A stretch of 64,000 bases of DNA from a phage: sequence record PZ357121.2, one strand, 5' to 3'. Numbering within the stretch: the stretch's first letter is position 1; every line of letters begins with the position of its first letter. The translations under genes were made by a program, and so were the position numbers. The notes under the pieces were generated by a model that worked only from the letters and a program-made list of their open reading frames with translations, had not been told where the DNA came from and ran no database searches. Shown here one piece after another: positions 1 to 55,466 of this stretch.

Positions 1-270
1 ATCAATTAATGAATCAACCACAAATTCATTTTCAGACCAGAAATATTTACGAGTGTTATATGCGTTATCTTTATACCATAATGGAACAAACTTAAATTCT
101 GGGAAAAGACGTTCGCATTCTTTAATATCAGATGCATTACGTGGATATGTAATCACATCACCCGGATTAGCACGGTGCAAATGAAGTTGGAAGTTGCCAT
201 CCTTAAGGATAGCATACTGTCCAGTTTCATAAGACCGCATACTCAAGATAGGTACGCGGAAAATAGCCAT
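1..270 (-). CDS. hypothetical protein, 5' part only (gene runs off window start); sits where T4 has beta-glucosyltransferase
   Basis: Manual minus-strand translation from ATG 270..268: MAIFRVPILSMRSYETGQYAILKDGNFQLHLHRANPGDVITYPR...; SD AAGGA upstream; TAATG overlap with stop of upstream gene. Confidence 0.5.
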   Translation of the reverse strand, partial: MAIFRVPILSMRSYETGQYAILKDGNFQLHLHRANPGDVITYPRNASDIKECERLFPEFKFVPLWYKDNAYNTRKYFWSENEFVVDSLID

Positions 271-986
271 TAGTCAAGGAATCCTTTAACATAATCAAAA
301 TCACGGTCAAACACATGGGCACTTACCATGGTATGAGTATAATCACCAACTTCTACACCACATTCTTTAGCGATATAATGAAGTAATTTTCCTTGGAGAT
401 AAAAATCCAACTGCATAACAACAGCACAGTTCTGAGAACGCATATGACAGTGGGTATAAAGCTTACCATCACGAATATAATAAGTCACTGAGTCAGTACA
501 TGGATATTCAAGTGTTTCGTCCGAATCAAGCAAAGCCTGATCTGAACTTTCAAGAATTTGAAACACAACTCTTCGTGAATTAGGTTTCTCTTTAAGTTCT
601 TTGAGAAGAGCTGGTAACTGGGCCGCAATTCGTGGACCATAGAAAGTGTTGAAGTTTGCAGGCAAAGCGTCTGATTTAGGTTTAGAAATAAATTTAGCAA
701 CGTTAGGATATGCCTTAAATGCTTCTTCTGCGTCGGTACCACCAGAAATCATAAATTTCCAGAAGTCTTCGGCATATTCATAAGAGATGCGGTTAATACG
801 TGGGTCGGTCATTTTGAATGATGATGGAGTGTCAACAACTACTGTCATAGACCCAATTTCATTACAACGTCCAATACGAGAATCAGTTACGAATTCCGGG
901 TTTTCTAAAATTTCACGATTGACTGCTTTAAATGCGGATTGAAAATCTGCGGCTTTGATATATTTCATTGTGTTATGTTTTCCCAT
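270..986 (-). CDS. thymidylate-synthase-fold pyrimidine hydroxymethylase (dCMP hydroxymethylase, gene 42 position)
   Basis: 238 aa; TS/dCMP-HMase motifs NSRRVVFQI, catalytic Cys in YPCTDSV, HMRSQN; SD GAGGT 5 nt before ATG. Confidence 0.8.
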   Translation of the reverse strand: MGKHNTMKYIKAADFQSAFKAVNREILENPEFVTDSRIGRCNEIGSMTVVVDTPSSFKMTDPRINRISYEYAEDFWKFMISGGTDAEEAFKAYPNVAKFISKPKSDALPANFNTFYGPRIAAQLPALLKELKEKPNSRRVVFQILESSDQALLDSDETLEYPCTDSVTYYIRDGKLYTHCHMRSQNCAVVMQLDFYLQGKLLHYIAKECGVEVGDYTHTMVSAHVFDRDFDYVKGFLD

Positions 987-1004
987 GTTTACCTCAATAC
1001 AGTT

Positions 1005-1030
1005 ATTATATACTCAATTCATAAAGCTTA
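1005..1030 (-). promoter_or_regulatory. candidate MotA-type middle promoter for the hydroxymethylase gene
   Basis: Minus strand reads AAGCTTTA (MotA-box-like) then 11 nt then TATAAT, about 20 nt upstream of ATG at 986. Confidence 0.3.
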
Positions 1031-1106
1031 TTTGAATTTCTTAGCGATGTTGATATAACGTAAAGCTTCAGCATCGATACTTCCAAGAACACTATGAAGA
1101 AATGCA

Positions 1107-1265
1107 TCAGCGTAGTATTCTAGTTGAACAGGTTTTAATCACTTTAGCCGCTTTAGTTTCAAACAGGCCCTTATGGGCCTTTTTAAGAATTTGTTCGTTG
1201 CTGTTAATTTTCGTAGTCAAAATCTCTTCGTTAAGTTGGTGGTTAAAAGTTTTTCTAGAAATCAT
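1107..1265 (-). CDS. small hypothetical protein (52 aa), below ORF-track cutoff
   Basis: ATG overlaps stop of upstream gene (ATGA); SD GAGGT 8 nt upstream; manual translation MISRKTFNHQLNEEILTTK... Confidence 0.3.
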   Translation of the reverse strand: MISRKTFNHQLNEEILTTKINSNEQILKKAHKGLFETKAAKVIKTCSTRILR

Positions 1266-2422
1266 TCTGGGTACCTCAAAGCGTCGTCAGAGTTAGTTAT
1301 ATCAATAATAGATATAGAATTTTCTGATAACCCATTTTTAGATAACTGACGTTTATAATATCTTTCACAATATGTACACGTCGTCCCGCAGATTTCATTA
1401 GCACAATCGAAATCTGGATGTTTGAACCACCTTTTTTCTAAAAAGCCATCTAACAAAGAGGTTTCAATATTTACCGTATGTGAAAACTCAGTTTCGTTTT
1501 CAAGAGTGAAAATGGTCTCTAAAGGCTTCCACAATTCCAACAAATTACCTTCAAATTTTTCAGAAGCATAAGCTTCAAGAACTTTCAAAATGTAGTCTGT
1601 GCTACCTGTACGTCCCGAAACTTTAAATTGGGTGATACCAATATCGTTATAAAGTTTCAAATCTTGTGGACGAACAAAACGAGTTCTCAACCAGTTAAAT
1701 GGGTCTGTATCACGAGCTTTAATACAGTGCTGCATTGGATATCCATTTAAGGATTTGGCATCATCTACTGTAACATCGGTGCTATGGAAAATATAGCAAG
1801 AGTCACGATAACTACAATGTGTTGTATACCCTTTACCAGCATTAGAACAGAACTCATTTACAAGAACTTCAAATATTATATTGTTCTTATTGCAAAACTC
1901 TGCTGCACGCTTCAGGAAAGAAACTGAACGGTTCTTATGAATTCCACAGCAGACCTTTTTGATATTATATTGGTCATGCAAGTATTTGATTTGAGTTACA
2001 GCATCGACATGTAGAATTGTTGAAACTTCAATCTCAATGTCTTTATTGACTTCACGAACAATTTCCATAACAACAGGGTTAGCGATAGTAATACGCCATA
2101 CGCCTATTGACCAAAGATACTGAACATAATCCTGAATAGCTTTCTTCTTCCACTCAACTAGTTCTCTTTTTGAACCAGGATTTATCGTGTTGAGTGTATA
2201 GTTAAAGCAAATACCTAATTCGTTACAACGTTTAACGTAATCTTCTAACATCTTTTTGTCAACGTCGGGAAGCCTAAAATCAGGTCTGGCTGCTACAAAA
2301 GCCATTTCTCTTGTAGAGCCGTATACTTCGTTTATCAAGCTATTAGGATAAGTTTTATTGAGCTCTACGATTTTATCAAGAAGAGCTAAATCAAAATTCG
2401 TTCCGATTTTAAAGGTATTCAT
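1262..2422 (-). CDS. peptidase-U32-like TIM-barrel protein with Cys cluster (putative Fe-S enzyme), function unknown
   Basis: 386 aa; U32-like segments (KIGTNFDLALLDKIVEL, FNYTLNTIN, EVLVNEFCSNAGKGYTTHC); C-terminal CANEICGTTCTYC. Confidence 0.75.
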   Translation of the reverse strand: MNTFKIGTNFDLALLDKIVELNKTYPNSLINEVYGSTREMAFVAARPDFRLPDVDKKMLEDYVKRCNELGICFNYTLNTINPGSKRELVEWKKKAIQDYVQYLWSIGVWRITIANPVVMEIVREVNKDIEIEVSTILHVDAVTQIKYLHDQYNIKKVCCGIHKNRSVSFLKRAAEFCNKNNIIFEVLVNEFCSNAGKGYTTHCSYRDSCYIFHSTDVTVDDAKSLNGYPMQHCIKARDTDPFNWLRTRFVRPQDLKLYNDIGITQFKVSGRTGSTDYILKVLEAYASEKFEGNLLELWKPLETIFTLENETEFSHTVNIETSLLDGFLEKRWFKHPDFDCANEICGTTCTYCERYYKRQLSKNGLSENSISIIDITNSDDALRYPE

Positions 2423-2476
2423 TTTTGCATCTCGCGTTAATTGTTGCGATGGTTTTTGCAGGTCTTACTTAAATTA

Positions 2477-2863
2477 TTATAGATTCGGTTTATATGATTT
2501 AAATGTTTCGAATTCGCCTTTATTCATAAGAGCTTTGAATTCGTCAGGACGCATAGCTTTGTCGTCGATAATCCAATCATATACTGGTTTATGTGTTAGC
2601 AAATTATGGTACTTCAATCCAATGTTTGCCAAGTTCTGAATCAGACTTGGGAGAATGTCAATTGCTATACGACCAGGACCGACTGACTTCATACCGCGAG
2701 CAGTGTAAAGCGTTATGGTATGCCCTGCATCATACAGGGCATTAATGGCAGACACCATTTCGACGTCTGGTTTGAAGTTCACGTAATCACGATTGTTATT
2801 CCACTCTGTTATACAATCATCGACATCAAAACAAAGATTAAGCATGTTTTCTACACGGTGCAT
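2477..2863 (-). CDS. HAD-superfamily phosphatase (small, GmhB/HisB-N-like)
   Basis: 128 aa from ATG 2863 (TAATG overlap with upstream stop); HAD motifs FDVDDCI, TLYTARG, HKP, IIDD. Confidence 0.75.
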   Translation of the reverse strand: MHRVENMLNLCFDVDDCITEWNNNRDYVNFKPDVEMVSAINALYDAGHTITLYTARGMKSVGPGRIAIDILPSLIQNLANIGLKYHNLLTHKPVYDWIIDDKAMRPDEFKALMNKGEFETFKSYKPNL

Positions 2864-4548
2864 TAGATTCGTTCCCATTGATGAGTGATATCGCCACCGA
2901 TTGGACGATAAGAAACACCAGTTTCTTTATCAGTTAGTACCCATTTACCAGGATTTTTTGTAATCAGAGTAGCCGTTACAGGTTCTGCTACATCATAACT
3001 AATAGTGCCGTCCTGAAGTACACGGCCCATGTTACGTAATTGCTTAGTCAGAAGTTCCATACCTTTATAATATGCGGCTACCGCTTTAAGTGGATTATTC
3101 TTGAAATAACCACCTAATGCAATCCAGATAATTGCCACTGCCAAATGATGATACTCGTTAAACGAACTCATCTTTCCATATTTGTAAACTAACGGATTGA
3201 TGTTAATAGTCACATTACAAGTTGTTTCATCAATAGTAAACTGTCCCCAAGTCGGATTAGCGTTGAATTCATCATAACCTGAAACAGCGTAAAGCACTTT
3301 AGCTTCATCATACAATTTTGGCCCATAAATCTTGGTTTCACCAAAATATCCACGAGGGTCGATAAACTTGACTTCACCATTATCAGTAATCATAGTATTA
3401 CTGAAGTTCGGGTCACCATGAATAACAGAGTACTGTCCCTGAGAACGGTTATGATAACGAATAAGGTGTTCTAAAGCTTGTTTCAACATTGGCTTCAGAC
3501 GCCCAATCTTAGTGTAGTTCACATGTGTGATTTTACCAAATGAATCAATCAATGGTTGAATACTTTCACAACGATCAATAACTTTAGTATAGAATTCTTT
3601 AGTGAAATCACGACGAACAGTTTCAGGACTTACAAAATAAGTGTCTGTGCTGAATTTCAGTGCATCTAAAATTGCATCAACAATTTGTGGACGAGCAAGA
3701 CTTGATTTGGATTTAATATATTCAAATGCCGGCTTACCTTTAATGCGTTCCATTTCAAAGTTATTTTCATTAACAGAAACTAACTGAGGAACTGAATCTG
3801 ATTTCACTTTAAGATACCATGAAATCTCATCTTTCTGAAGAGCTCGGCCCTGTTCGGTTAATGCGAATTTAGTTACAGTTTCTTCACCAATTTCAACTGC
3901 ATTAAAACTACGATTAAGTTCACGAACTTCATGAGCTTTTTCAAGTTTAGGCATATCACCTAAATCAATTAGATTCATAAGCTCTGATTTATTGAATGCG
4001 CTGCCGTAAAGGAATTCTACGAAATCACGTCCTTTGCAGTATTCATGAATTTCCTCATCAGTAGAACCCATATAGAATTCCCAGTCTTTGAACTGATAAA
4101 TTCCTACAACATTACCACCTGTTGAACCTACATTAGTGATATTTTCACCGTCGAAATTATATCGACATTCGTCACCCTTAACATAGATTGCGTTAACATT
4201 CCAAGACCACGAACCAAAATCAGGAATAATATCACACCAGTTAACAATTACATTATGGCCGTCTAAATCTTTGTGCAATTTAGCAAGAGCATAAGCAGAA
4301 CCATACGCTTCATCAACTGTACGAATAGTCACATTGAACCCTTCTTGCTCACAATAAGCTCGAACAGTTTCAGCAAATTTTGAATGAACTACTACAATAA
4401 TTTCATCTGCGCCAAGGTCAGAATAAATTGTATACAAATTGCTCAGAATAGTGTCTTGTTTATAGTTAACAAGCACCTTAGGAATATGATGCGTTATTGG
4501 ATACAAACGAGTTGCCAGTCCAGCACCAAGAATAACAGCTTTTTTCAT
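2863..4548 (-). CDS. bifunctional sugar-1-phosphate nucleotidyltransferase / sugar kinase
   Basis: 561 aa; N-terminal NTP-transferase motif ILGAGLATRLYPIT..PKVLV; C-terminal APH/choline-kinase-fold motifs IHGDPNFSN and FIDPRGY; SD GAGGA. Confidence 0.85.
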   Translation of the reverse strand: MKKAVILGAGLATRLYPITHHIPKVLVNYKQDTILSNLYTIYSDLGADEIIVVVHSKFAETVRAYCEQEGFNVTIRTVDEAYGSAYALAKLHKDLDGHNVIVNWCDIIPDFGSWSWNVNAIYVKGDECRYNFDGENITNVGSTGGNVVGIYQFKDWEFYMGSTDEEIHEYCKGRDFVEFLYGSAFNKSELMNLIDLGDMPKLEKAHEVRELNRSFNAVEIGEETVTKFALTEQGRALQKDEISWYLKVKSDSVPQLVSVNENNFEMERIKGKPAFEYIKSKSSLARPQIVDAILDALKFSTDTYFVSPETVRRDFTKEFYTKVIDRCESIQPLIDSFGKITHVNYTKIGRLKPMLKQALEHLIRYHNRSQGQYSVIHGDPNFSNTMITDNGEVKFIDPRGYFGETKIYGPKLYDEAKVLYAVSGYDEFNANPTWGQFTIDETTCNVTININPLVYKYGKMSSFNEYHHLAVAIIWIALGGYFKNNPLKAVAAYYKGMELLTKQLRNMGRVLQDGTISYDVAEPVTATLITKNPGKWVLTDKETGVSYRPIGGDITHQWERI

Positions 4549-4729
4549 GTTGTGGTCCTCATTGGTAAGTAGGAGTATTGTACACTATTCTAGTTAAAGC
4601 ATTCATACTTTGCTTGTAGTCCAATCATAATCCATCCGATTATAAGAGTCGGAATCATTACTGGAGCCGTTAAGCTCCAGTAGATAGTCATGACAAGCAT
4701 CAATAGTAAAAGTCCTATTGTTATTGCTT

Positions 4730-5365
4730 TCATTGTTCGCCTCGTAACATGGCACCTAGTGCACCACCAGGGTGGAACTTAAGGAAGTCATTAGAGGTAA
4801 ATCCACGTTCAGACGAAAGGTTGATAGCAAACGTATCGATAAGCGCTAACAACAATGTAGTGGACATGGTCGGAGCCAGAGAATTCTCATCAACCTCTAC
4901 TGCGATGCCTGTACAGAACGTATAATCAAAAAGAGCTTCGTATTCTTGTGGAATGTCCGGGTTACAATGCAACAGAATCTGTTTGACGTTCGGACGAATC
5001 ATTTTAAGATGCTTAGCCACGCCTATCATTTCTTCAGTTTTACCAGAACGACTAATATGAATCAACACATCATTAGGCGCAATGAATCCTGCATCACCGT
5101 GAGAATAATGCCCAGTGTTCAAGTACATACTCGGGATACCAAGTGAAGCAAATGTCTCAGAAGCTTTAGTTGCAATATTAGCATTCTTACCAACACCTGT
5201 AATAATTACTCGGCTTTCATAATTACTAAGTCCTGGGCGTCGAAGAGTTTCTAGAATAGCATTATAACGAGCAGGGTTTTGACTAATTACTTTGGCCATA
5301 GCGGCCAAAGAAGAAGCTTGTTTTATGATTGCGTCAATAGCGATAGTAATAGGAGTAGTTTTCAT
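4730..5365 (-). CDS. SIS-domain arabinose-5-phosphate isomerase (KdsD/GutQ/KpsF type, no CBS domains)
   Basis: 211 aa; motifs GVGKNANIA, HGDAG, ISRSGKTEE, LAPTMSTT, FHPGGALG parallel E. coli KdsD. Confidence 0.85.
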   Translation of the reverse strand: MKTTPITIAIDAIIKQASSLAAMAKVISQNPARYNAILETLRRPGLSNYESRVIITGVGKNANIATKASETFASLGIPSMYLNTGHYSHGDAGFIAPNDVLIHISRSGKTEEMIGVAKHLKMIRPNVKQILLHCNPDIPQEYEALFDYTFCTGIAVEVDENSLAPTMSTTLLLALIDTFAINLSSERGFTSNDFLKFHPGGALGAMLRGEQ

Positions 5366-37553: not shown

Positions 37554-37741
37554 TATTCTTCGACATGCTTTTTACGACCTTTCTTATCGATAAAGGTGTA
37601 TTCCATAAAGCGGCCATGATAACGACGTTCAACATCATGTGGGGTATTAATAGGACACTTAGTCTGGCGAATTTCTTCCCATTCACGAATAATGACTGCT
37701 TTATTCTTCGGGTCATACGGGTGAGGATAATGTACATTCAT
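37529..37741 (-). CDS. hypothetical protein
   Basis: 70 aa from ATG 37741 (ATGA overlap with the macro-domain gene stop). Confidence 0.45.
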   Translation of the reverse strand: MNVHYPHPYDPKNKAVIIREWEEIRQTKCPINTPHDVERRYHGRFMEYTFIDKKGRKKHVEEYCMQVTWL

Positions 37742-38235
37742 AACAATGGTTCCCAATCAACAATCACAATTTCTAGTTTAGTGGAATACGTATCAAGAAT
37801 TTCTTCAATGATATCCCAGTTTCCACCACCTATACCTGCACCAATTCTCGGCATATAAATCACAGGCTTTGTTATTTTATTCTTTCCGAATTCATTTAAT
37901 TCTATTATACAATTCATTAAAGCATAGTACTCGAAATTAGGTCCCGGCTCAAACTGTGTATAAAGATTAAAGCAATAAGCTTTATGGGTCTTAAAATATT
38001 TTTCATAAACCGAATAAGTCCCGAGTTTAGTCTCATCACCGAATTCGGTTTGAAGTTTATCTGCTTCTAAAATTTTTGGATAAGCCTTTGCTAATTGTCC
38101 TGCTACACCGGAACCCATTGTATGAAAACAATTACACCCATGAGCAATATTATTACCTTTAGAAAACAGGGCGACAATATCGCCCTTGATATAGTTTTTA
38201 ATCACTTGCTGCAAGTCCTCTATTATAAGAGTCAA
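37738..38235 (-). CDS. macro-domain protein (ADP-ribose binding/hydrolase fold)
   Basis: 165 aa; KGDIVALFSKGNNIAHGCNCFHTMGSGVAGQLAKAYP and C-terminal IYMPRIGAGIGGGNW resemble macro-domain motifs. Confidence 0.6.
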   Translation of the reverse strand: MTLIIEDLQQVIKNYIKGDIVALFSKGNNIAHGCNCFHTMGSGVAGQLAKAYPKILEADKLQTEFGDETKLGTYSVYEKYFKTHKAYCFNLYTQFEPGPNFEYYALMNCIIELNEFGKNKITKPVIYMPRIGAGIGGGNWDIIEEILDTYSTKLEIVIVDWEPLL

Positions 38236-41064: not shown

Positions 41065-41600
41065 TGCATTCCAATCACAAAAAATTGAGGACGAGCAATA
41101 CCGCCGTTGCAATATTTGCTTTTGCAACAGTGTTGGACTGTTTTAATATGTACATTGTAAATCTTATCCATATCAGGAGCTTTAATAGGCTCGTCAATTA
41201 TATACAGAATACGAGAAAGCGTTAATCCACGGAATTTAGAACCTTCATTGCCAATAAAACTACGAACAGAATCAGTAAATAAACGGAATCGAATATCGTC
41301 GCTAGAATAACGAGAAAATTCTTTTTCAATGTTGCCAGCAGAAATTTTAGCATAAGCTGAAGTATTAGAAAGAACAATAACCGTTCCACCATCATACAGC
41401 CAATTAGCAGCAAAGTTAGTCACAGCAATTGATTTACCTGATTGTCGGCCACCGTCTAAACGAAGTGTACAGTACTGCTTGAGTACGTCTTCAAACGGTG
41501 GGACATAACCGTTCTTACAAATTTCTTCTACTCTAGCATCAGAATGGTGTGTAAAAGCATTCATCAGGGATAGATAAGGTCCAGTTAAAAATGTTCTCAT
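41061..41600 (-). CDS. P-loop NTPase (Walker A/B), start uncertain
   Basis: Walker A GGRQSGKS, Walker B LYIIDEP; early promoter GTTTAC upstream. Confidence 0.55.
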   Translation of the reverse strand: MRTFLTGPYLSLMNAFTHHSDARVEEICKNGYVPPFEDVLKQYCTLRLDGGRQSGKSIAVTNFAANWLYDGGTVIVLSNTSAYAKISAGNIEKEFSRYSSDDIRFRLFTDSVRSFIGNEGSKFRGLTLSRILYIIDEPIKAPDMDKIYNVHIKTVQHCCKSKYCNGGIARPQFFVIGMQ

Positions 41601-41776
41601 ATTATTTCTCTTAAGGTTTGGGCCATTCCGTGGCACATGTTAGGTCCTTCGACTCGCTATGTAAACCCATTACCGCATTGCGCTCGACCTTATTACAGGT
41701 TGGAAAAGGTACATCACTCAGAGGACTCGACGTTCATGAGGAGAGGTTGCGTTCCCCTTTATTAGACAGGAATTAT

Positions 41777-42037
41777 TTAAGCTTTACCACCAGAAACAAT
41801 TCCAAAGTTATCAAAATCGTATTCAATATCATCAGCATCCACTTTAGGTCCCGCTACGATGTATGCGATTTCGCGGCGCTTTGCATAGGTATTGATTTCT
41901 TTACCGTCACCACCTAAGAAAGAATATCCATTACGTTTTAATGAGCCAAAGTCTTCAGCATCACCTGCGAATGCTTTAACTTTAAATTTAGGGCCTTTAA
42001 CGACTGCTTCTGTGATAAATTCTTGATACGTTTTCAT
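41777..42037 (-). CDS. internal (capsid-injected) protein with capsid-targeting sequence, ipII-like
   Basis: Starts MKTYQEFITEA (T4 CTS consensus MKTYQEFIAE); 86 aa; adjacent to denV. Confidence 0.7.
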   Translation of the reverse strand: MKTYQEFITEAVVKGPKFKVKAFAGDAEDFGSLKRNGYSFLGGDGKEINTYAKRREIAYIVAGPKVDADDIEYDFDNFGIVSGGKA

Positions 42038-42052
42038 TTTTATGTCCATTAG

Positions 42053-42466
42053 TTAGTAAATTGATTTGCCATAATATTTGTACCAAGACGGCCGTTGAGC
42101 AATTTTTTCATCTAAGCGTGCTTGACTTATCGCAATGGACGCTTCGGACGGGTCATAATTATTACGAAATTCGGCAGGGATGTCGGAAATATCCTGGACT
42201 GTCGTGTCCTTGATTTTGAAACCACGTTTCAAGCATTCAGCGATTAGCTCGATTTGACGTAAACGTAAAAATTCGAGTTTGTCGTAAAAGAATGTTACGT
42301 GACCTGTGCCTAAGATAAATGTTGGAGAGATTTTAAAATCCTTTACACGTTTACCGTTTTGAACATGTTTACGGACTGCACCAAATACGCGTGGTAATTC
42401 ACGATACTCAGCCATAAGATGTTGGTCGGCCAGTTCAGAAACAAGTGTTAAATTGATACGGGTCAT
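42053..42466 (-). CDS. denV: endonuclease V (pyrimidine-dimer DNA glycosylase) DenV
   Basis: 137 aa from ATG 42466 ([34 protein letters not shown]...), SD GGAGG; matches T4 DenV. Confidence 0.92.
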
Positions 42467-42524
42467 AATTTCCTCCAAGTAGTTGATGAATGTATAGTAT
42501 CAAAGTCCTTGGAGGAAGTAAACA

Positions 42525-42806
42525 CTATTTTTCTGAAGCGCCTGAAATATATTTTTCAAGACGTTGTTTCATTAGCGAGCCGTTCTTAGCGATTTCTTCC
42601 GGTTTATCGCACATACGTAACAAGGCTTCAAGCTTAGCGATATCGCTGGTACGTTCAAATTTGCGAGTATCTATCTTACTAGCAAGTTCAGAAATACGTG
42701 CTAATAGACTTTCAGCTTCAACCAAAGCTGCACCTAGCTTAGTTGCAAATGTGTCAGTAGCTTCGTTAAGAATAGATTCTGATAAAAATTCACTATATGT
42801 TTTCAT
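42525..42806 (-). CDS. internal (capsid-injected) protein with capsid-targeting sequence, ipIII-like
   Basis: From ATG 42806 starts [11 protein letters not shown]; ATGA overlap with e stop; 93 aa. Confidence 0.7.
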
Positions 42807-43291
42807 ATATACGCTTTCCAAGTTCCTGTTTTAAATGTTGAGATTACGCGTTTCGCGCGATTAGGTGTCTGACGATACCATTTAGATTGGGCTAGATTTA
42901 CTGCCGCTTCATCCCAACGTTTCTGTTGAAGCATACGAAGAGAATTAGTAAAACCGGCGACTCCTGCTACACCCATTTGGAAGACCATATTGACCAATGC
43001 ACACCGACGAACTGCATCTAAAGAATCATATACCGGTTTAAGTTTAGCATTACCCAAGATTCCGCGGACGGCTTTATCAACGTCTTCATTAAATAGCTTT
43101 TCAGCCTCATCAAGGGTAATTGTACCGTTGCATTTACGTCCGATCATTCTGTCAAGTTCAGCTTTAGCTACGGCTAAAGACGGATTCTTTGTTACTAAAT
43201 GACCTATGCCAATCGTCCAAAAGCCTTCAGTGTCTTTGTATAAAGTCAGTCTAAGACCTTCGTCATTACGAAGCATTTCAAATATATTCAT
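42803..43291 (-). CDS. e: endolysin (T4 lysozyme e)
   Basis: 162 aa from ATG 43291: [32 protein letters not shown]...; SD GGAGG; near-identical to T4 lysozyme. Confidence 0.95.
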
Positions 43292-43325
43292 AATACCTCC
43301 CACGTTTATAGGAGGTATTTATTAC

Positions 43326-43784
43326 TTATAGGAGGGTAGTGAGCACCTTATATAATGATTTGCCCATTACATATTCCCATTGAGAAGGTTTAATTAAAGC
43401 GAATGCATCAAATTCAGGAATCTGTCGTCCGTCTGGGAACGTATGATAGGAATTACAAACACTGTTTCTGAATTGCTCGTGCTCTACAGGGATGGTATAT
43501 AAGAACAGATGAATATTCTTATTGTCTGAGTAACGATGTTCACCTAGGTCTTTCAGGAAGGCAGGGTCATATTGTGTAAACCCAGTTTCTTCTTCGCATT
43601 CACGAATAGCGGCTTCGATAGGAGATTCACCGGGCTCGACACGGCCTTTAGGAATATCCCACCGATGAGCTAAAGAACCTTTAGGACGAGAACCAGTTAC
43701 ACGGCCCATGAATAACTCTTTATCTTTTGTCATGAAGATAATACCAGCTGATAGCTCTTTCACTTTATTTTTCTTACTCATCAT
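43326..43784 (-). CDS. nudE: Nudix hydrolase NudE
   Basis: Nudix box GRVEPGESPIEAAIRECEEETG; next to e as in T4. Confidence 0.85.
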   Translation of the reverse strand: MMSKKNKVKELSAGIIFMTKDKELFMGRVTGSRPKGSLAHRWDIPKGRVEPGESPIEAAIRECEEETGFTQYDPAFLKDLGEHRYSDNKNIHLFLYTIPVEHEQFRNSVCNSYHTFPDGRQIPEFDAFALIKPSQWEYVMGKSLYKVLTTLL

Positions 43785-51205: not shown

Positions 51206-51284
51206 ATTTTCCTCACTTAAAGTTGGTGCCTCTAGAAAGATTTGAACTCTCACCATTAACCTTAGAACGATTATATGCTATCCA

Positions 51285-51956
51285 TTACACTATAGAGGCA
51301 ATTAAATTATTTACAATATCTTCTTTATAAACTTCAGCATAATGAAGTTCATATATTTCCCATCCTAATGATTTTATAATATCATGGCGTTCTTTATAAT
51401 AAGGGGCCAAAATCTTTTTCTTAGGATTGGAGTAATGTTGGTTTCCATTAACTTCAATAATAATCTTTTTATCTATTAAAGCAATATCCGTGCAATACGC
51501 TCGGTTTTTAACCGGTTGGTATTCTTCAATAAATGAAATTCCGTTTTCTATTAATTTAGATTTCAAAAATTCACAAGGCACAGATTTAAATTTTGTATTT
51601 TTCTTCCAAGGATGTTTATCAGGGTTTTCATTCAACCATTTTTTCCGAGCATTAGATATTTTTATTCTAGATTCCTCAGAGTGTTCTCTACCTAATGAAG
51701 CGGCTGACAATTTTTGTCTAGTCTCTTCCGAAATTACTACAGGGACACCAGTCTTTTTAGATACAACATACTGGTTTAAATTACCTGAAGCTATACGTGC
51801 TTTATTCATTGCTGCAATGGCTGATTTAGAACTTTCTTTATACAATTCCAATTTAGGGTTGGATTTACACCATCTAGTGTGGTTAGCCATCCATCCTTTA
51901 GGTTTATTAGAAATATCAAATTCCATATTACAATGTTTACAAATGCTCATTACCAA
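51285..51956 (-). CDS. homing-endonuclease-like protein with N-terminal zinc finger, NUMOD3 and C-terminal Vsr/DUF559-like nuclease domain
   Basis: 223 aa; CKHCNMEF..HTRWCK finger, LGREHSEESRIKIS (NUMOD3-like), C-terminal IIIEVNGNQHY...RHDIIKSLGWEIYEL; in tRNA region where T4 has segB. Confidence 0.7.
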   Translation of the reverse strand: MVMSICKHCNMEFDISNKPKGWMANHTRWCKSNPKLELYKESSKSAIAAMNKARIASGNLNQYVVSKKTGVPVVISEETRQKLSAASLGREHSEESRIKISNARKKWLNENPDKHPWKKNTKFKSVPCEFLKSKLIENGISFIEEYQPVKNRAYCTDIALIDKKIIIEVNGNQHYSNPKKKILAPYYKERHDIIKSLGWEIYELHYAEVYKEDIVNNLIASIV

Positions 51957-51960
51957 TTAT

Positions 51961-51979
51961 CTCCTATAAAATATAGGAG
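51961..51979 (-). promoter_or_regulatory. perfect hairpin sequestering the SD of gene 51285..51956
   Basis: CTCCTATA-AAA-TATAGGAG; on the minus strand the proximal arm TATAGGAG is the RBS 5 nt before ATG 51956. Confidence 0.45.
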
Positions 51980-52024
51980 TATTTATTATTTGGATAGAGC
52001 ACTTAATTTACTTCGTTTAAATTA

Positions 52025-52096
52025 CTGGCGCACTTGGACTCGAACCAAGATAAAGGAGTTAACAGCTCCCCGTAATAACCTTTATACGATGCACCA
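52025..52096 (-). tRNA. tRNA-Asn (anticodon GUU), CCA not encoded
   Basis: Manual cloverleaf: acceptor UGGUGCA/UGCGCCA, anticodon stem GGGAG/CUCCU with loop CUGUUAA, T-arm CUUGG-UUCGAGU-CCAAG, discriminator G; U1-A72 as in E. coli tRNA-Asn. Confidence 0.75.
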
Positions 52097-52102
52097 TTTG
52101 TT

Positions 52103-52177
52103 TGGTGACCCTGGCTGGTTTCGATCCAGCTACCTATCAGTTATGAGCTGACAGCTCTCCCATTGAGCTACAGGGCC
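52103..52177 (-). tRNA. tRNA with CAU anticodon (Met or AUA-decoding Ile2-like), CCA encoded
   Basis: Manual cloverleaf: acceptor GGCCCUG/CAGGGUC, D-stem GCUC/GAGC, anticodon loop CUCAUAA, T-stem GCUGG/CCAGC, 3' ACCA; resembles E. coli tRNA-Ile2. Confidence 0.75.
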
Positions 52178-53700: not shown

Positions 53701-53964
53701 TTAAATACCAGCTTCGCGTTTAACATAATCGACGTAAGCTTGGATAGCTTTCTTGCTGGTAATTTTTACCTGACCACGACCATTGCCTTCTTTAGAGTTT
53801 TTCTTAACAACTACATTACCATCTTTAACACCCCATACATGGACGTAAGTACCGATGTTTCGGTCGTAGAACATTGCATGGTCGTTGTTGTAAGAGAATG
53901 ATTCGTAGTTCTCTGTCAGAGTAGAAGATTGAGATTCGGCGATAAATTCTTTATAGGTTTTCAT
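53701..53964 (-). CDS. ipI: internal protein I-like (capsid-injected, CTS-bearing)
   Basis: 87 aa; starts MKTYKEFIAES (capsid-targeting sequence); T4 ipI position next to 57B; early promoter with inverted repeat upstream. Confidence 0.75.
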   Translation of the reverse strand: MKTYKEFIAESQSSTLTENYESFSYNNDHAMFYDRNIGTYVHVWGVKDGNVVVKKNSKEGNGRGQVKITSKKAIQAYVDYVKREAGI

Positions 53965-54041
53965 TTTATTTCCTTGAGGCTGTTTATTTGATAGGATGAT
54001 AGTAACACACCATCATCCTTATGTAAACTGTTTTGTGAAAA

Positions 54042-54731: not shown

Positions 54732-55466
54732 TTACCTTAAGATTGTTTCAATTTTAGAATAAAGCTCTTCTAAAGAGCCGTCGTTTGTAATAACTAAATC
54801 GCCTTCTTCAATAGGCAACCCAGCTTCTGTAATATGTTTATCAGTGGATTCCGTACCAGAGCGAACCACATGAATAACTGTAGCACCCATCGCTCTAGCG
54901 GTTTCCATTTCATGGACTTGGCGTGTATCGGTTACAACATAGTAATCGAAATCACTTCCAATATAATCCATATAGTTTAATGCAAAAAGTTTAACCCAAT
55001 ACATACGGTCAAATAAATTAACGACAACATCCGTACCGAGGGCTTGCATAAGACGGCGGATTGACCATGTGTCGTTGATATTATTTATAGCTTCACGCAG
55101 GGCTTCATATGGTTTAATATCTAGATATGAATACCCACCTTCTAATGATGATAATACTTTAACATTATTAATTGGTAAATATTGACTTTGTAAATAAATT
55201 AGCGCTTCTTCCAATAATTCAATAACATCCAACTTATTGAGATTTAATGGTGTTTCACGGTCGTATCCAACACCTTCGAAGTATTCATATTTCAACTCAG
55301 TGAATACATCAGGATTTTCAGCATGCCTACGTCCCCAGGCTATTGCTAGAGCGTCTTTAATCGGATATGCCAATTGGTATTTTACGGATTTAAAGTTTGA
55401 ATTGATGTAATCGGCAGTAGTGTCTTTACCACTACGTTTGATGCCGCTTAAAAAGATTAGCTCCAT
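54732..55466 (-). CDS. 1: deoxynucleoside monophosphate kinase gp1
   Basis: 244 aa; P-loop GIKRSGKDT; ...RRLMQALGTDVVVNLFDRMYWVKLFAL...ARAMGATVIHVVR matches T4 gp1. Confidence 0.92.
   Translation of the reverse strand: MELIFLSGIKRSGKDTTADYINSNFKSVKYQLAYPIKDALAIAWGRRHAENPDVFTELKYEYFEGVGYDRETPLNLNKLDVIELLEEALIYLQSQYLPINNVKVLSSLEGGYSYLDIKPYEALREAINNINDTWSIRRLMQALGTDVVVNLFDRMYWVKLFALNYMDYIGSDFDYYVVTDTRQVHEMETARAMGATVIHVVRSGTESTDKHITEAGLPIEEGDLVITNDGSLEELYSKIETILR

What the first reader, a model, noticed from the sequence alone, without database searches (positions are those of the whole stretch)
41777..42806. Capsid-targeted internal proteins as candidate anti-restriction cargo
Two proteins here start with the capsid-targeting sequence ([22 protein letters not shown]), and ipI at 53701 starts MKTYKEFIAES. 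All are packaged and injected proteins by T4 precedent. Their mature sequences differ from the T4 versions as far as I can judge. In T4 an injected internal protein blocks a modification-dependent restriction enzyme. If this phage carries a different DNA sugar, its injected proteins may target different host nucleases.
Basis: partly seen in the sequence, partly recalled or inferred. Interest (0 to 1): 0.45.

Follow-up and report, generated by a model that had tools for sequence, protein, structure and literature searches.

The report
Three capsid-targeted injected phage proteins
Three small genes of this RB69-like phage carry the T4 capsid-targeting leader, so their products are very probably packed into the head and injected with the DNA to disarm host nucleases; the class and the idea are already published, but in one of the three the leader sits on a protein family that otherwise lacks it.

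Summary
Three minus-strand ORFs start with the T4 capsid-targeting sequence (CTS): A 41777-42037, B 42525-42806, C 53701-53964. The motif occurs 3 times in the window and never in 200 shuffles. All three keep the residues known to matter (Tyr4, Phe7, Ile/Leu8, Glu10) and lie in the two canonical T-even internal-protein (Ip) loci. Their mature parts show no similarity to T4 Ip1/2/3.

A and B are already annotated "internal head protein" in RB69 and JK45. B belongs to the known Ip5 family (48% identity to T2 Ip5). C is called "hypothetical" in every record that annotates it, and it is not an ipI orthologue. C carries an ipI-type 18-residue leader on a small protein family whose other members all lack a CTS and sit in other, mostly early-gene, regions of T4-like phages.

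The window carries the 5-hydroxy-dCMP synthase and arabinose gene cluster. A near-identical phage (NicPhage) has arabinosylated cytosine and is BrxU-sensitive.

The anti-restriction idea was published in 2025: T4 Ip1-3 each block a different GmrSD, and all Ips were proposed to do likewise. It stays untested for A, B and C. Structure prediction failed, so no target can be named. Verdict: ordinary and largely known, with one modestly new member (C).

The parts
41777..42037 (-). Gene A: 86-aa internal-protein precursor (RB69p125 family, phrog_2667). The predicted mature protein is residues 11-86 (76 aa, 8.2 kDa, pI 6.5).
   Evidence: ORF and start codon. 83% identical to RB69p125, which is annotated 'internal head protein'. 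phrog_2667 E=9e-22. Found in 221 phage records. dN/dS 0.12 against the RB69 allele.
42008..42037 (-). Leader of A, codons 1-10 (MKTYQEFITE|A): CTS with the only [LIV]xE site in the protein.
   Evidence: The roles of residues 4, 7, 8 and 10 come from PMC9026906. The leader is conserved in homologues.
42525..42806 (-). Gene B: 93-aa internal-protein precursor of the Ip5 family (RB69ORF127c, phrog_3499). Its ATG overlaps the stop codon of lysozyme gene e (ATGA).
   Evidence: phrog_3499 E=2e-46. 48% identity to T2 Ip5, E=6e-22.
42762..42806 (-). Leader of B, codons 1-15 ([15 protein letters not shown]|A). Sites are LSE10 and LNE15. LNE/INE15 is the site kept in all homologues and matches the 15-residue leader of T2 Ip5 (..TITE|S).
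53701..53964 (-). Gene C: 87-aa CTS-tagged member of a small family that otherwise lacks a CTS (phrog_13302). It is not an ipI orthologue. The predicted mature protein is residues 19-87 (69 aa, pI 9.4) or 11-87.
53911..53964 (-). Leader of C, codons 1-18 (MKTYKEFIAE|SQSSTLTE|N). It is an ipI-type long leader. Codons 14-18 (TCTACTCTGACAGAG) match the end of the RB69/JK45 ipI leader at 13 of 15 nt. Homology to the CTS-less relatives begins at Asn19.
53988..54028 (-). Early-type promoter plus stem-loop element upstream of C (GTTTACATAAGGATGATGGTGTGTTACTATCATCCTATCAA), the 5' boundary of the cassette.
   Evidence: The same element heads the first cassette after 57B in RB69, T4 and SHSML-52-1. The element class is described in PMC2839356.
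53658..53698 (-). Second copy of the promoter/stem-loop element directly after the stop of C. It is the 3' boundary of the cassette and the promoter of the trna.4 homologue.
43316..43330 (-). Two near-consensus late-promoter motifs (TATAAGTA, AATAAATA) upstream of e. They are the probable late transcription source for e and the translationally coupled gene B.
   Evidence: This is a consensus match only.

Best explanation
A, B and C are precursors of T4-type internal proteins. During prohead assembly the N-terminal leader (Tyr4 and Phe7) ties each precursor to the scaffolding core. The prohead protease gp21 then cuts after Glu of an (I/L)-x-E site: Glu10 in A, Glu15 in B, and Glu18 and/or Glu10 in C. 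The 8-9 kDa mature proteins stay in the head with the DNA and are injected with it. Once in the cell they most likely act as stoichiometric inhibitors of host first-response nucleases. The favoured targets are GmrSD-family type IV enzymes that cleave this phage's arabinosylated cytosine DNA. The genes are exchangeable cassettes. C in particular is bracketed by repeated early-promoter/stem-loop elements, and it was made by joining an ipI-type leader to a pre-existing small accessory protein. What is shown: the leader and cleavage motifs, the loci, the family links and the cassette structure. What is inferred: packaging, cleavage positions, injection and target. My confidence that they are packaged internal proteins is about 0.85-0.9. 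My confidence that the target is a type IV/GmrSD nuclease is about 0.45. The score given is for the whole statement.
For: The leader motif is far beyond chance. Residues 4, 7, 8 and 10 match the experimentally mapped CTS determinants. [LIV]xE sites are confined to the leader in A and C, as in T4 IPI-III. All three lie in the two canonical Ip loci, collinear with T4 and RB69. A and B fall in PHROG 'internal head protein' families and are so annotated in RefSeq. B is homologous to T2 Ip5. A survey of 120 sequences (the window plus 119 related loci) gave 124 distinct CTS ORFs in 27 unrelated cargo families, so the CTS behaves as a generic address tag. All three T4 Ips inhibit distinct GmrSD subtypes. 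The window carries the arabinosyl-5-hydroxycytosine pathway genes. DNA of this type is cut by GmrSD enzymes. The other members of the C family lack a CTS and sit in other variable regions of T4-like phages. The closest one (Dhakavirus) lies behind an early-type promoter next to motA, which fits a function needed at the very start of infection. A is under purifying selection (dN/dS 0.12), so it is a working gene.
Against: I found no virion proteomics for any of the three. No canonical late promoter TATAAATA lies within 200 nt of any of them, and C has only an early-type promoter directly upstream. Late expression is needed for packaging, so it must come from read-through or weaker motifs. ip4-10 gave no reproducible GmrSD inhibition. 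NicPhage, which carries near-identical A, B and C, remains BrxU-sensitive. B has two further [LIV]xE sites inside its helical body (LVE30, ISE40), so it might be degraded rather than kept. No fold or domain could be assigned, so nothing in the cargo sequences points to a nuclease target.
Confidence: 0.5

Rival explanations
1. The proteins are packaged and injected as above, but their targets are not type IV restriction enzymes. They may block another first-response defence (type I/III R-M, BREX, RecBCD-like or abortive-infection sensors) or help host take-over.
For: The cargo families are unrelated to Ip1-3. ip4-10 scored negative on GmrSD panels. The relatives of C without a CTS are accessory genes in other variable regions, next to motA, cef and dexA/41-like genes, where many kinds of take-over and counter-defence genes reside. 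The Ip5/B family spans phages with different DNA sugars.
Against: All three Ips whose function is known hit GmrSD-family enzymes, and no other Ip target has been reported in the papers read. The negative ip4-10 screen used glucosyl-hmC T-even phages only, so it does not test enzymes aimed at arabinosyl DNA.
Confidence: 0.25
2. They are structural or assembly components of the prohead core, or DNA counter-ions that aid packaging and ejection, with no role in host defence. B in particular could be a helical core protein that gp21 chops into peptides.
For: B has extra cleavage motifs at residues 30 and 40. Mature C is basic (pI 9.2-9.4), like IPI-III.
Against: Mature A and B are near neutral (pI 6.3-6.5 if cut at Glu10, B 8.1 if cut at Glu15), which makes them poor DNA counter-ions. 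The genes are gained, lost, truncated and swapped between very close relatives: RB69 has at least seven CTS ORFs and the window has three, and truncated or frameshifted A copies exist. That is not expected of structural parts. The C family works without any capsid address in other phages.
Confidence: 0.12
3. The leaders are vestigial. One or more of the ORFs is no longer packaged and acts, if at all, as an ordinary cytoplasmic protein.
For: C has only an early-type promoter directly upstream. The RB69 reference copy of B has its CTS core scrambled by a compensated frameshift yet keeps an intact body.
Against: All four functionally mapped leader positions are intact in A, B and C and in their homologues. 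The targeting-critical residues would decay quickly if they were unused.
Confidence: 0.05

Closest known systems
T4 internal protein I (IPI*, Ip1), inhibitor of GmrSD-CT596
   Same: C occupies the same locus, between trna.4 and 57B. C has the same kind of long leader ending S-T-(I/L)-T-E|. The mature size (69-77 aa against 76 aa) and the basic pI are similar.
   Different: There is no sequence similarity in the mature part. In JK45 the true ipI homologue and the C homologue sit side by side, so C is an additional cassette and not an allele of ipI. The window lacks the ipI homologue altogether.
T4 Ip2 and Ip3 (inhibitors of GmrSD-ECOR21/BrxU and of the two-gene GmrSD-ECOR17)
   Same: A and B lie in the same denV-e locus. 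The 10-residue CTS is nearly identical (MKTYQEFIAE|A in T4, MKTYQEFITE|A in A).
   Different: The cargo is unrelated. The gene order differs: A-denV-B-e here against denV-ipII-ipIII-e in T4. NicPhage, with the same A and B, is not protected from BrxU.
Ip5 of T2, RB32 and VR26 (named internal head protein, function unknown)
   Same: B is a homologue: 48% identity over 84 residues, E=6e-22. Both are helical and have a 15-residue leader ending in an (I/L)-x-E site.
   Different: T2 ip5 sits in the ipI locus, whereas B sits between e and denV and is translationally coupled to e. The B-type allele forms a separate subgroup: 235 records at 90% identity or more, against 258 records below 60%.
RB69p125 and RB69ORF127c (RefSeq 'internal head protein')
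   Same: They are direct orthologues of A (83% aa identity) and B (91%) in the same positions.
   Different: The window's A is an old divergent allele: dS 0.70, against 0.07 for the adjacent denV. RB69 has two more CTS cassettes (ORF123c, ORF124c) after A that the window lacks, with a clean junction right after the A stop codon. The RB69 reference copy of B has a scrambled CTS.
PeSL-like promoter/stem-loop cassettes of the T-even Ip loci (Repoila 1994; Arbiol 2010)
   Same: C is bracketed by two copies of GTTTACAT..stem-loop..CCTATCAA. The same element flanks ip cassettes in T4, RB69 and SHSML-52-1.
   Different: A and B have no such elements directly beside them. A follows denV by 15 nt and B overlaps e.
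Dhakavirus (IME08/IME341) 73-aa ORF between genes 52 and motA, and metagenomic relatives P0015, P0017 and P0018
   Same: They are homologous to the mature part of C. IME08 is 66% identical over residues 17-82, and the others are 31-43% identical. The shared core is H-x-M-F/Y ... Y-V/I-H-V-W-G ... V-V-K-x-N ... K-K.
   Different: None has a CTS. They lie in other variable regions: behind an early-type promoter between 52 and motA in IME08, next to cef in L122, and next to gp41/DexA-like genes in L121.

Membership tests
T4-type internal proteins (CTS-tagged, gp21-processed, head-packaged, injected) | N-terminal capsid-targeting sequence with the targeting residues at positions 4 (Tyr/Phe) and 7 (Phe) | tested here: met
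   A, B and C all read M-K-T-Y-x-E-F. The requirement is taken from PMC9026906. The motif occurs 3 times, against 0 in 200 shuffles.
T4-type internal proteins (CTS-tagged, gp21-processed, head-packaged, injected) | gp21 cleavage motif (I/L)-x-E at positions 8-10, or at the end of a longer leader | tested here: met
   A has ITE10. B has LSE10 and the conserved LNE15. C has IAE10 and LTE18.
T4-type internal proteins (CTS-tagged, gp21-processed, head-packaged, injected) | Gene located in one of the two variable Ip loci (denV-e, or trna.4-57B) | tested here: met
T4-type internal proteins (CTS-tagged, gp21-processed, head-packaged, injected) | Processed protein physically present in virions and injected with the DNA | not testable with these tools
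   No proteomic data for these proteins were found.
T4-type internal proteins (CTS-tagged, gp21-processed, head-packaged, injected) | Late expression, so that the protein is present during prohead assembly | tested here: inconclusive
   No TATAAATA lies within 200 nt of any of the three. B is coupled to e, which has two one-mismatch late motifs. C has only an early-type promoter directly upstream, and the nearest exact late motif is at 55089.
   BLASTP similarity ends at residue 18-19. tblastn of T4 IPI finds only the leader. JK45 and RB69 have a separate true ipI homologue.
Ip5 family (for B) | Full-length homology to T2/RB32 Ip5 | tested here: met
   48% identity over 84 aa, E=6e-22. 258 phage records at 47-55% identity include some annotated ip5/ipV.
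GmrSD (type IV restriction) inhibitors | Homology to a proven inhibitor (Ip1, Ip2 or Ip3) | tested here: not met
GmrSD (type IV restriction) inhibitors | Binding to and inhibition of a GmrSD-family nuclease | not testable with these tools
   Only indirect data exist: ip4-10 were negative on eight active GmrSDs with T-even phages, and NicPhage is sensitive to BrxU.
Long-HPF C-terminal (ribosome-dimerisation) domain, considered for A | Significant sequence or profile similarity to the domain | tested here: not met
   There was a single phmmer hit to 3ka5 at E=0.3. The profile search found nothing, Pfam found nothing, and hhalign gave probability 2.5%.
Promoter/stem-loop-flanked Ip cassette (PeSL-like) | Direct repeats of an early promoter plus stem-loop on both sides of the gene | tested here: met
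   This is met for C only, at 54028-53988 and 53698-53658. It is not met for A and B.

The most novel reading that the evidence does not exclude
C records the recruitment of an ordinary cytoplasmic accessory protein into the injected arsenal. An ipI-type leader with its own cleavage site was joined to a family that otherwise lacks a CTS, so that after gp21 cleavage at Glu18 the injected product is almost exactly the stand-alone protein. If so, expressing a factor early and pre-loading it in the head are interchangeable ways of delivering the same counter-defence factor. The close CTS-tagged and CTS-less forms occur in Mosigvirus and Dhakavirus, both predicted makers of glycosylated 5-hydroxycytosine. 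This hints that the family's target is a host nuclease aimed at that modification.
Probability: 0.3. Interest if true: 0.5.

Novelty: new member of a known kind. Interest (0 to 1): 0.3.

Why it matters
Internal proteins act before any phage gene is expressed, so they help set the host range of T4-like phages, including therapy candidates. Knowing which Ips a phage carries is useful only once their targets are known. For arabinosyl-cytosine phages no Ip-target pair has been defined apart from the ipI homologue of RB69, which this phage lacks. A, B and C are therefore sensible first candidates for screens against type IV enzymes using a Mosigvirus rather than T4. C, with its CTS-less relatives, also offers a natural matched pair for asking what pre-loading a protein in the capsid buys the phage. 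None of this changes current understanding: the class, the cassette mechanism and the anti-restriction hypothesis are all in the literature.

Tried and rejected
1. Structure prediction failed. AlphaFold2 on A (4 sequences) gave pLDDT 47 and on C (3 sequences) gave pLDDT 53, so neither model is usable. Foldseek of the C model against the PDB gave no hit below E=1.

2. Domain and structure libraries gave nothing. Pfam, NCBIfam and PDB sequence searches of A, B and C returned nothing significant.

3. I followed a tempting phmmer hit of mature A to the C-terminal domain of long hibernation-promoting factor (3ka5, E=0.3, covering most of the domain) and rejected it. The profile search, Pfam and hhalign (probability 2.5%) give no support.

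4. The search for canonical late promoters next to the genes found none.

5. A weak tblastn match of B at 37648-37812 straddles two reading frames and is spurious.

6. The conserved 140-nt spacer after A (41637-41776) has no Rfam match and folds no better than shuffles (z=+1.4). It is not an RNA element.

7. T4 motA.1 was considered as a counterpart of the Dhakavirus C-like ORF. By its annotation it is a 49-residue predicted periplasmic protein, and I did not compare the sequences.

8. I could not establish which of the published ip4-10 correspond to A or C. The sequences are not in the held text, and Repoila 1994 is not held.

9. Elevated divergence of A was tested for positive selection. dN/dS is 0.12, so it reflects an old allele brought in by exchange, not rapid adaptive change.

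Full report
WHAT IS THERE

The window is a T4-type phage of the RB69 group (Mosigvirus). Region 41500-43400 is 99.2-99.4% identical to phages mobillu, NicPhage and JK45, and about 95.6% identical to RB69.
- A, 42037->41777, 86 aa, MKTYQEFITEA.
- B, 42806->42525, 93 aa, [11 protein letters not shown].
- C, 53964->53701, 87 aa, MKTYKEFIAES.

The strict pattern MKT[YF]xEF[LI]xE is found three times in six frames and never in 200 shuffles of the window. A relaxed pattern adds no credible fourth gene. A follows denV by 15 nt. B's ATG overlaps the stop codon of lysozyme gene e (ATGA). C lies between the trna.4 homologue and 57B. These are the two internal-protein (Ip) loci of T4.

DO THEY MEET THE DEFINITION OF AN INTERNAL PROTEIN?

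Mutational work summarised in PMC9026906 places capsid targeting mainly at residues 4 and 7 of the 10-residue leader, and gp21 processing at residues 8 and 10. All three ORFs have Tyr4, Phe7, Ile/Leu8 and Glu10.

Potential gp21 sites ([LIV]-x-E) are distributed as follows:
- In A the only site is ITE10|A, as in T4 IPII and IPIII.
- C has IAE10|S and LTE18|N, both in the leader.
- B has LSE10|S and LNE15|A, plus LVE30 and ISE40 inside its body.

For B the site kept in every homologue is (L/I)NE15|A, and P0013 has lost LSE10. T2 Ip5, a homologue of B, has a 15-residue leader ending TITE|S. I therefore predict cleavage after Glu15.

PHROGs places A in phrog_2667 and B in phrog_3499, both 'internal head protein'. 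C falls in phrog_13302, 'unknown function'. RefSeq already calls the A and B orthologues of RB69 and JK45 'internal head protein'. C is 'hypothetical protein' or unannotated in all 36 phage records that contain it or a relative. Packaging, cleavage and injection cannot be tested here, and I found no proteomic report covering these proteins.

RELATION TO THE T4 PROTEINS

BLASTP similarity of A, B and C to T4 IPI, IPII and IPIII ends after the leader. The window has no T4-IPI-like cargo. RB69 has a true ipI homologue (p155) plus an Ip7-family gene (p156) at that locus. JK45 has [57B]-[ipI]-[C]-[trna.4]. The window has only [57B]-[C]-[trna.4].

B is a member of the named Ip5 family, with 48% identity to T2 Ip5 (E=6e-22). 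B-type alleles at 90% identity or more occur in 235 phage records. These include phages filed under Tequatrovirus, such as IME340 and slur14, with the same e-B-denV arrangement. The Ip5 family is therefore not confined to arabinose-modified phages.

A occurs in 221 records spanning Mosigvirus, VR7-like and S16-like phages. The window's allele is only 83% identical to RB69's, while the flanking denV is 98% identical. With dS 0.70 against 0.07 for denV, and dN/dS 0.12, this is an old allele moved in by exchange and kept under purifying selection. It is not a fast-evolving gene.

HOW VARIABLE IS THE REPERTOIRE?

RB69 carries at least seven CTS ORFs: 123c, 124c, 125, 127c, 149c, 155 and 156. The window carries three. 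The 720-bp difference after A is a clean absence of the module [promoter-ORF124c-ORF123c], with the junction directly after the stop codon of A.

I surveyed 119 related loci together with the window. Most were IMG/VR loci retrieved around denV and 57B. The survey found 124 distinct CTS ORFs falling into 27 mutually unrelated cargo families. A is family 3 (10 loci), B is family 6 (9 loci) and C is unique to the window in that sample. This reproduces the published picture of more than 30 Ip variants in two hyperplastic loci.

CASSETTE STRUCTURE

C is bracketed by two copies of an early-type promoter with an embedded stem-loop (GTTTACAT ... CCTATCAA), at 54028-53988 and 53698-53658. The same element heads and follows ip cassettes in T4, RB69 and SHSML-52-1. 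Six such elements lie on the minus strand of the window. These are the PeSL-like elements that Repoila 1994 and Arbiol 2010 linked to Ip shuffling.

No exact late promoter (TATAAATA) lies within 200 nt of A, B or C. Gene e, to which B is translationally coupled, has two one-mismatch late motifs at 43330 and 43323. The nearest exact motif upstream of C is at 55089. Late expression is therefore plausible for B and unproven for A and C.

THE ONE NEW POINT: THE ORIGIN OF C

In 5.8 billion clustered proteins, C has only two clusters: its own and a 73-aa Dhakavirus protein. A full HMMER scan of 1.84 billion representatives finds six sequences at E of 0.001 or less. One of them is a 26-residue match inside a 3562-aa protein that I did not examine. 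The remaining relatives all lack the CTS:
- The Dhakavirus copy (66% identical over residues 17-82) is an unannotated ORF between gene 52 and motA, behind a duplicated early-promoter/5'UTR unit.
- P0015 lies next to gp41-like and DexA-like genes.
- P0018 lies next to a Cef homologue.
- P0017 is a 47-aa sequence that also lacks the leader.

In the alignment the window protein alone has the extra N-terminal block. Codons 14-18 of C (TCT ACT CTG ACA GAG, S-T-L-T-E) match the end of the RB69/JK45 ipI leader at 13 of 15 nt. Homology to the CTS-less proteins starts at the next residue, Asn19.

The simplest reading is that an ipI-type long leader, cleavage site included, was joined to a pre-existing small accessory protein. 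Cleavage at Glu18 would then release almost exactly the stand-alone protein (69 aa, pI 9.4). The opposite direction, loss of the leader in several lineages, is less parsimonious but not excluded. The Dhakavirus copy shares the first three codons, ATGAAAACC.

THE DNA SUGAR

The first 5.4 kb of the window encodes:
- a thymidylate-synthase-family protein (270-986), homologous to the gene annotated dCMP hydroxymethylase in JK45;
- a peptidase-U32-family protein (1262-2422);
- a nucleotidyl-transferase (2863-4548);
- a SIS-domain sugar isomerase (4730-5365).

In RB69 this cluster (gp45-55) makes 5-hydroxy-dCMP and the NDP-arabinose donor. NicPhage was shown to carry mono- and di-arabinosyl-dC in a 1:4 ratio and to be restricted by the GmrSD-family enzyme BrxU. 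RB69 DNA is cut by GmrSD-CT596 and UTI89.

FUNCTION

IPI* blocks GmrSD-CT596. IPIII is required on ECOR17. Silas et al. 2025 showed that Ip1, Ip2 and Ip3 each inhibit one distinct GmrSD subtype without cross-protection. They proposed that all genes of the two Ip loci target GmrSD variants. They also reported that ip4-10 from T4-like phages gave no reproducible inhibition of eight active systems.

- NicPhage, which has A and B at 99.4% nucleotide identity and C at 98.9% amino-acid identity, is still BrxU-sensitive.
- The Ip5/B family is shared with glucosyl-hmC phages.
- Mature A and B are near neutral, and nothing in their sequence points to a target.

One point in its favour is that the negative ip4-10 screen used only T-even challenge phages. 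Enzymes specific for arabinosyl DNA were never sampled.

Attempts to get a fold failed (pLDDT 47 and 53). A suggestive hit of A to the ribosome-hibernation-factor C-terminal domain did not survive profile tests.

VERDICT

The classification as capsid-targeted internal proteins is well supported by sequence, at about 0.85-0.9. The anti-type-IV-restriction role is a reasonable but untested analogy, at about 0.45. A and B are already annotated members of known families. C is a previously unrecognised Ip whose cargo family otherwise lacks the address tag. That is a modest, checkable addition to a well-described system. Interest is low to moderate.

Noticed in passing
L002 (RB69 NC_004928) 3483-3528, compared with window 42762-42806: The RB69 reference copy of gene B (ORF127c) differs from the window by a 1-nt deletion and a 1-nt insertion 22 nt apart. 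This shifts the frame of codons 5-12 and turns the CTS core SEFLSESI into MNFYQNLS. It is either an old sequencing error or a natural CTS-dead allele.
   Followed up: partly
window 270-5365 (minus strand): This is a gene cluster for modified cytosine: a thymidylate-synthase-family 5-hydroxy-dCMP synthase homologue (270-986), a peptidase-U32-family protein (1262-2422), an NTP-transferase (2863-4548) and a SIS-domain isomerase (4730-5365). From my own knowledge, the U32 family includes RNA 5-hydroxylation factors, so its presence beside a 5-hydroxycytosine pathway is curious. The term U32 does not occur in the paper I checked.
   Followed up: partly
window 37738-38235 (minus strand): A 165-aa ORF with a Macro (ADP-ribose-binding/hydrolase) domain (Pfam E=1e-6). 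It might be an ADP-ribosylation-reversing counter-defence gene. I did not investigate it further.
   Followed up: no
window minus strand, starts at 54028, 53698, 50406, 46606, 35322 and 31136: Six copies of a roughly 41-nt element, GTTTAC(A)..stem-loop..CTATCAA, which is an early-type promoter with an embedded hairpin. Only the two that flank gene C were examined.
   Followed up: partly
L005 (RB69) 51-491: RB69ORF149c (146 aa) starts MKTYAEFLTEA, a full CTS. It lies beyond the tRNA genes, outside the two classical Ip loci, and is annotated hypothetical. The window has no homologue.
   Followed up: partly
L004 (IME08) 1084-1716: The 52-motA interval of Dhakavirus IME08 holds two small ORFs, each preceded by the same roughly 75-nt early-promoter/5'UTR unit. 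The second ORF, the C-like gene at 1495-1716, is not annotated in the RefSeq record.
   Followed up: partly
phage records PhAPEC2, pEK20 and MRostami-2023e; proteins P0006-P0009: Several Mosigvirus genomes and metagenomic contigs carry truncated, frameshifted or internally deleted copies of gene A, with only the last 24 codons left in some. Gene A is evidently dispensable and often decays.
   Followed up: no
window 51227-52177 (minus strand): There are three tRNA genes between the two Ip loci. RB69 and JK45 are annotated with two (Arg, Met) at the corresponding place.
   Followed up: no
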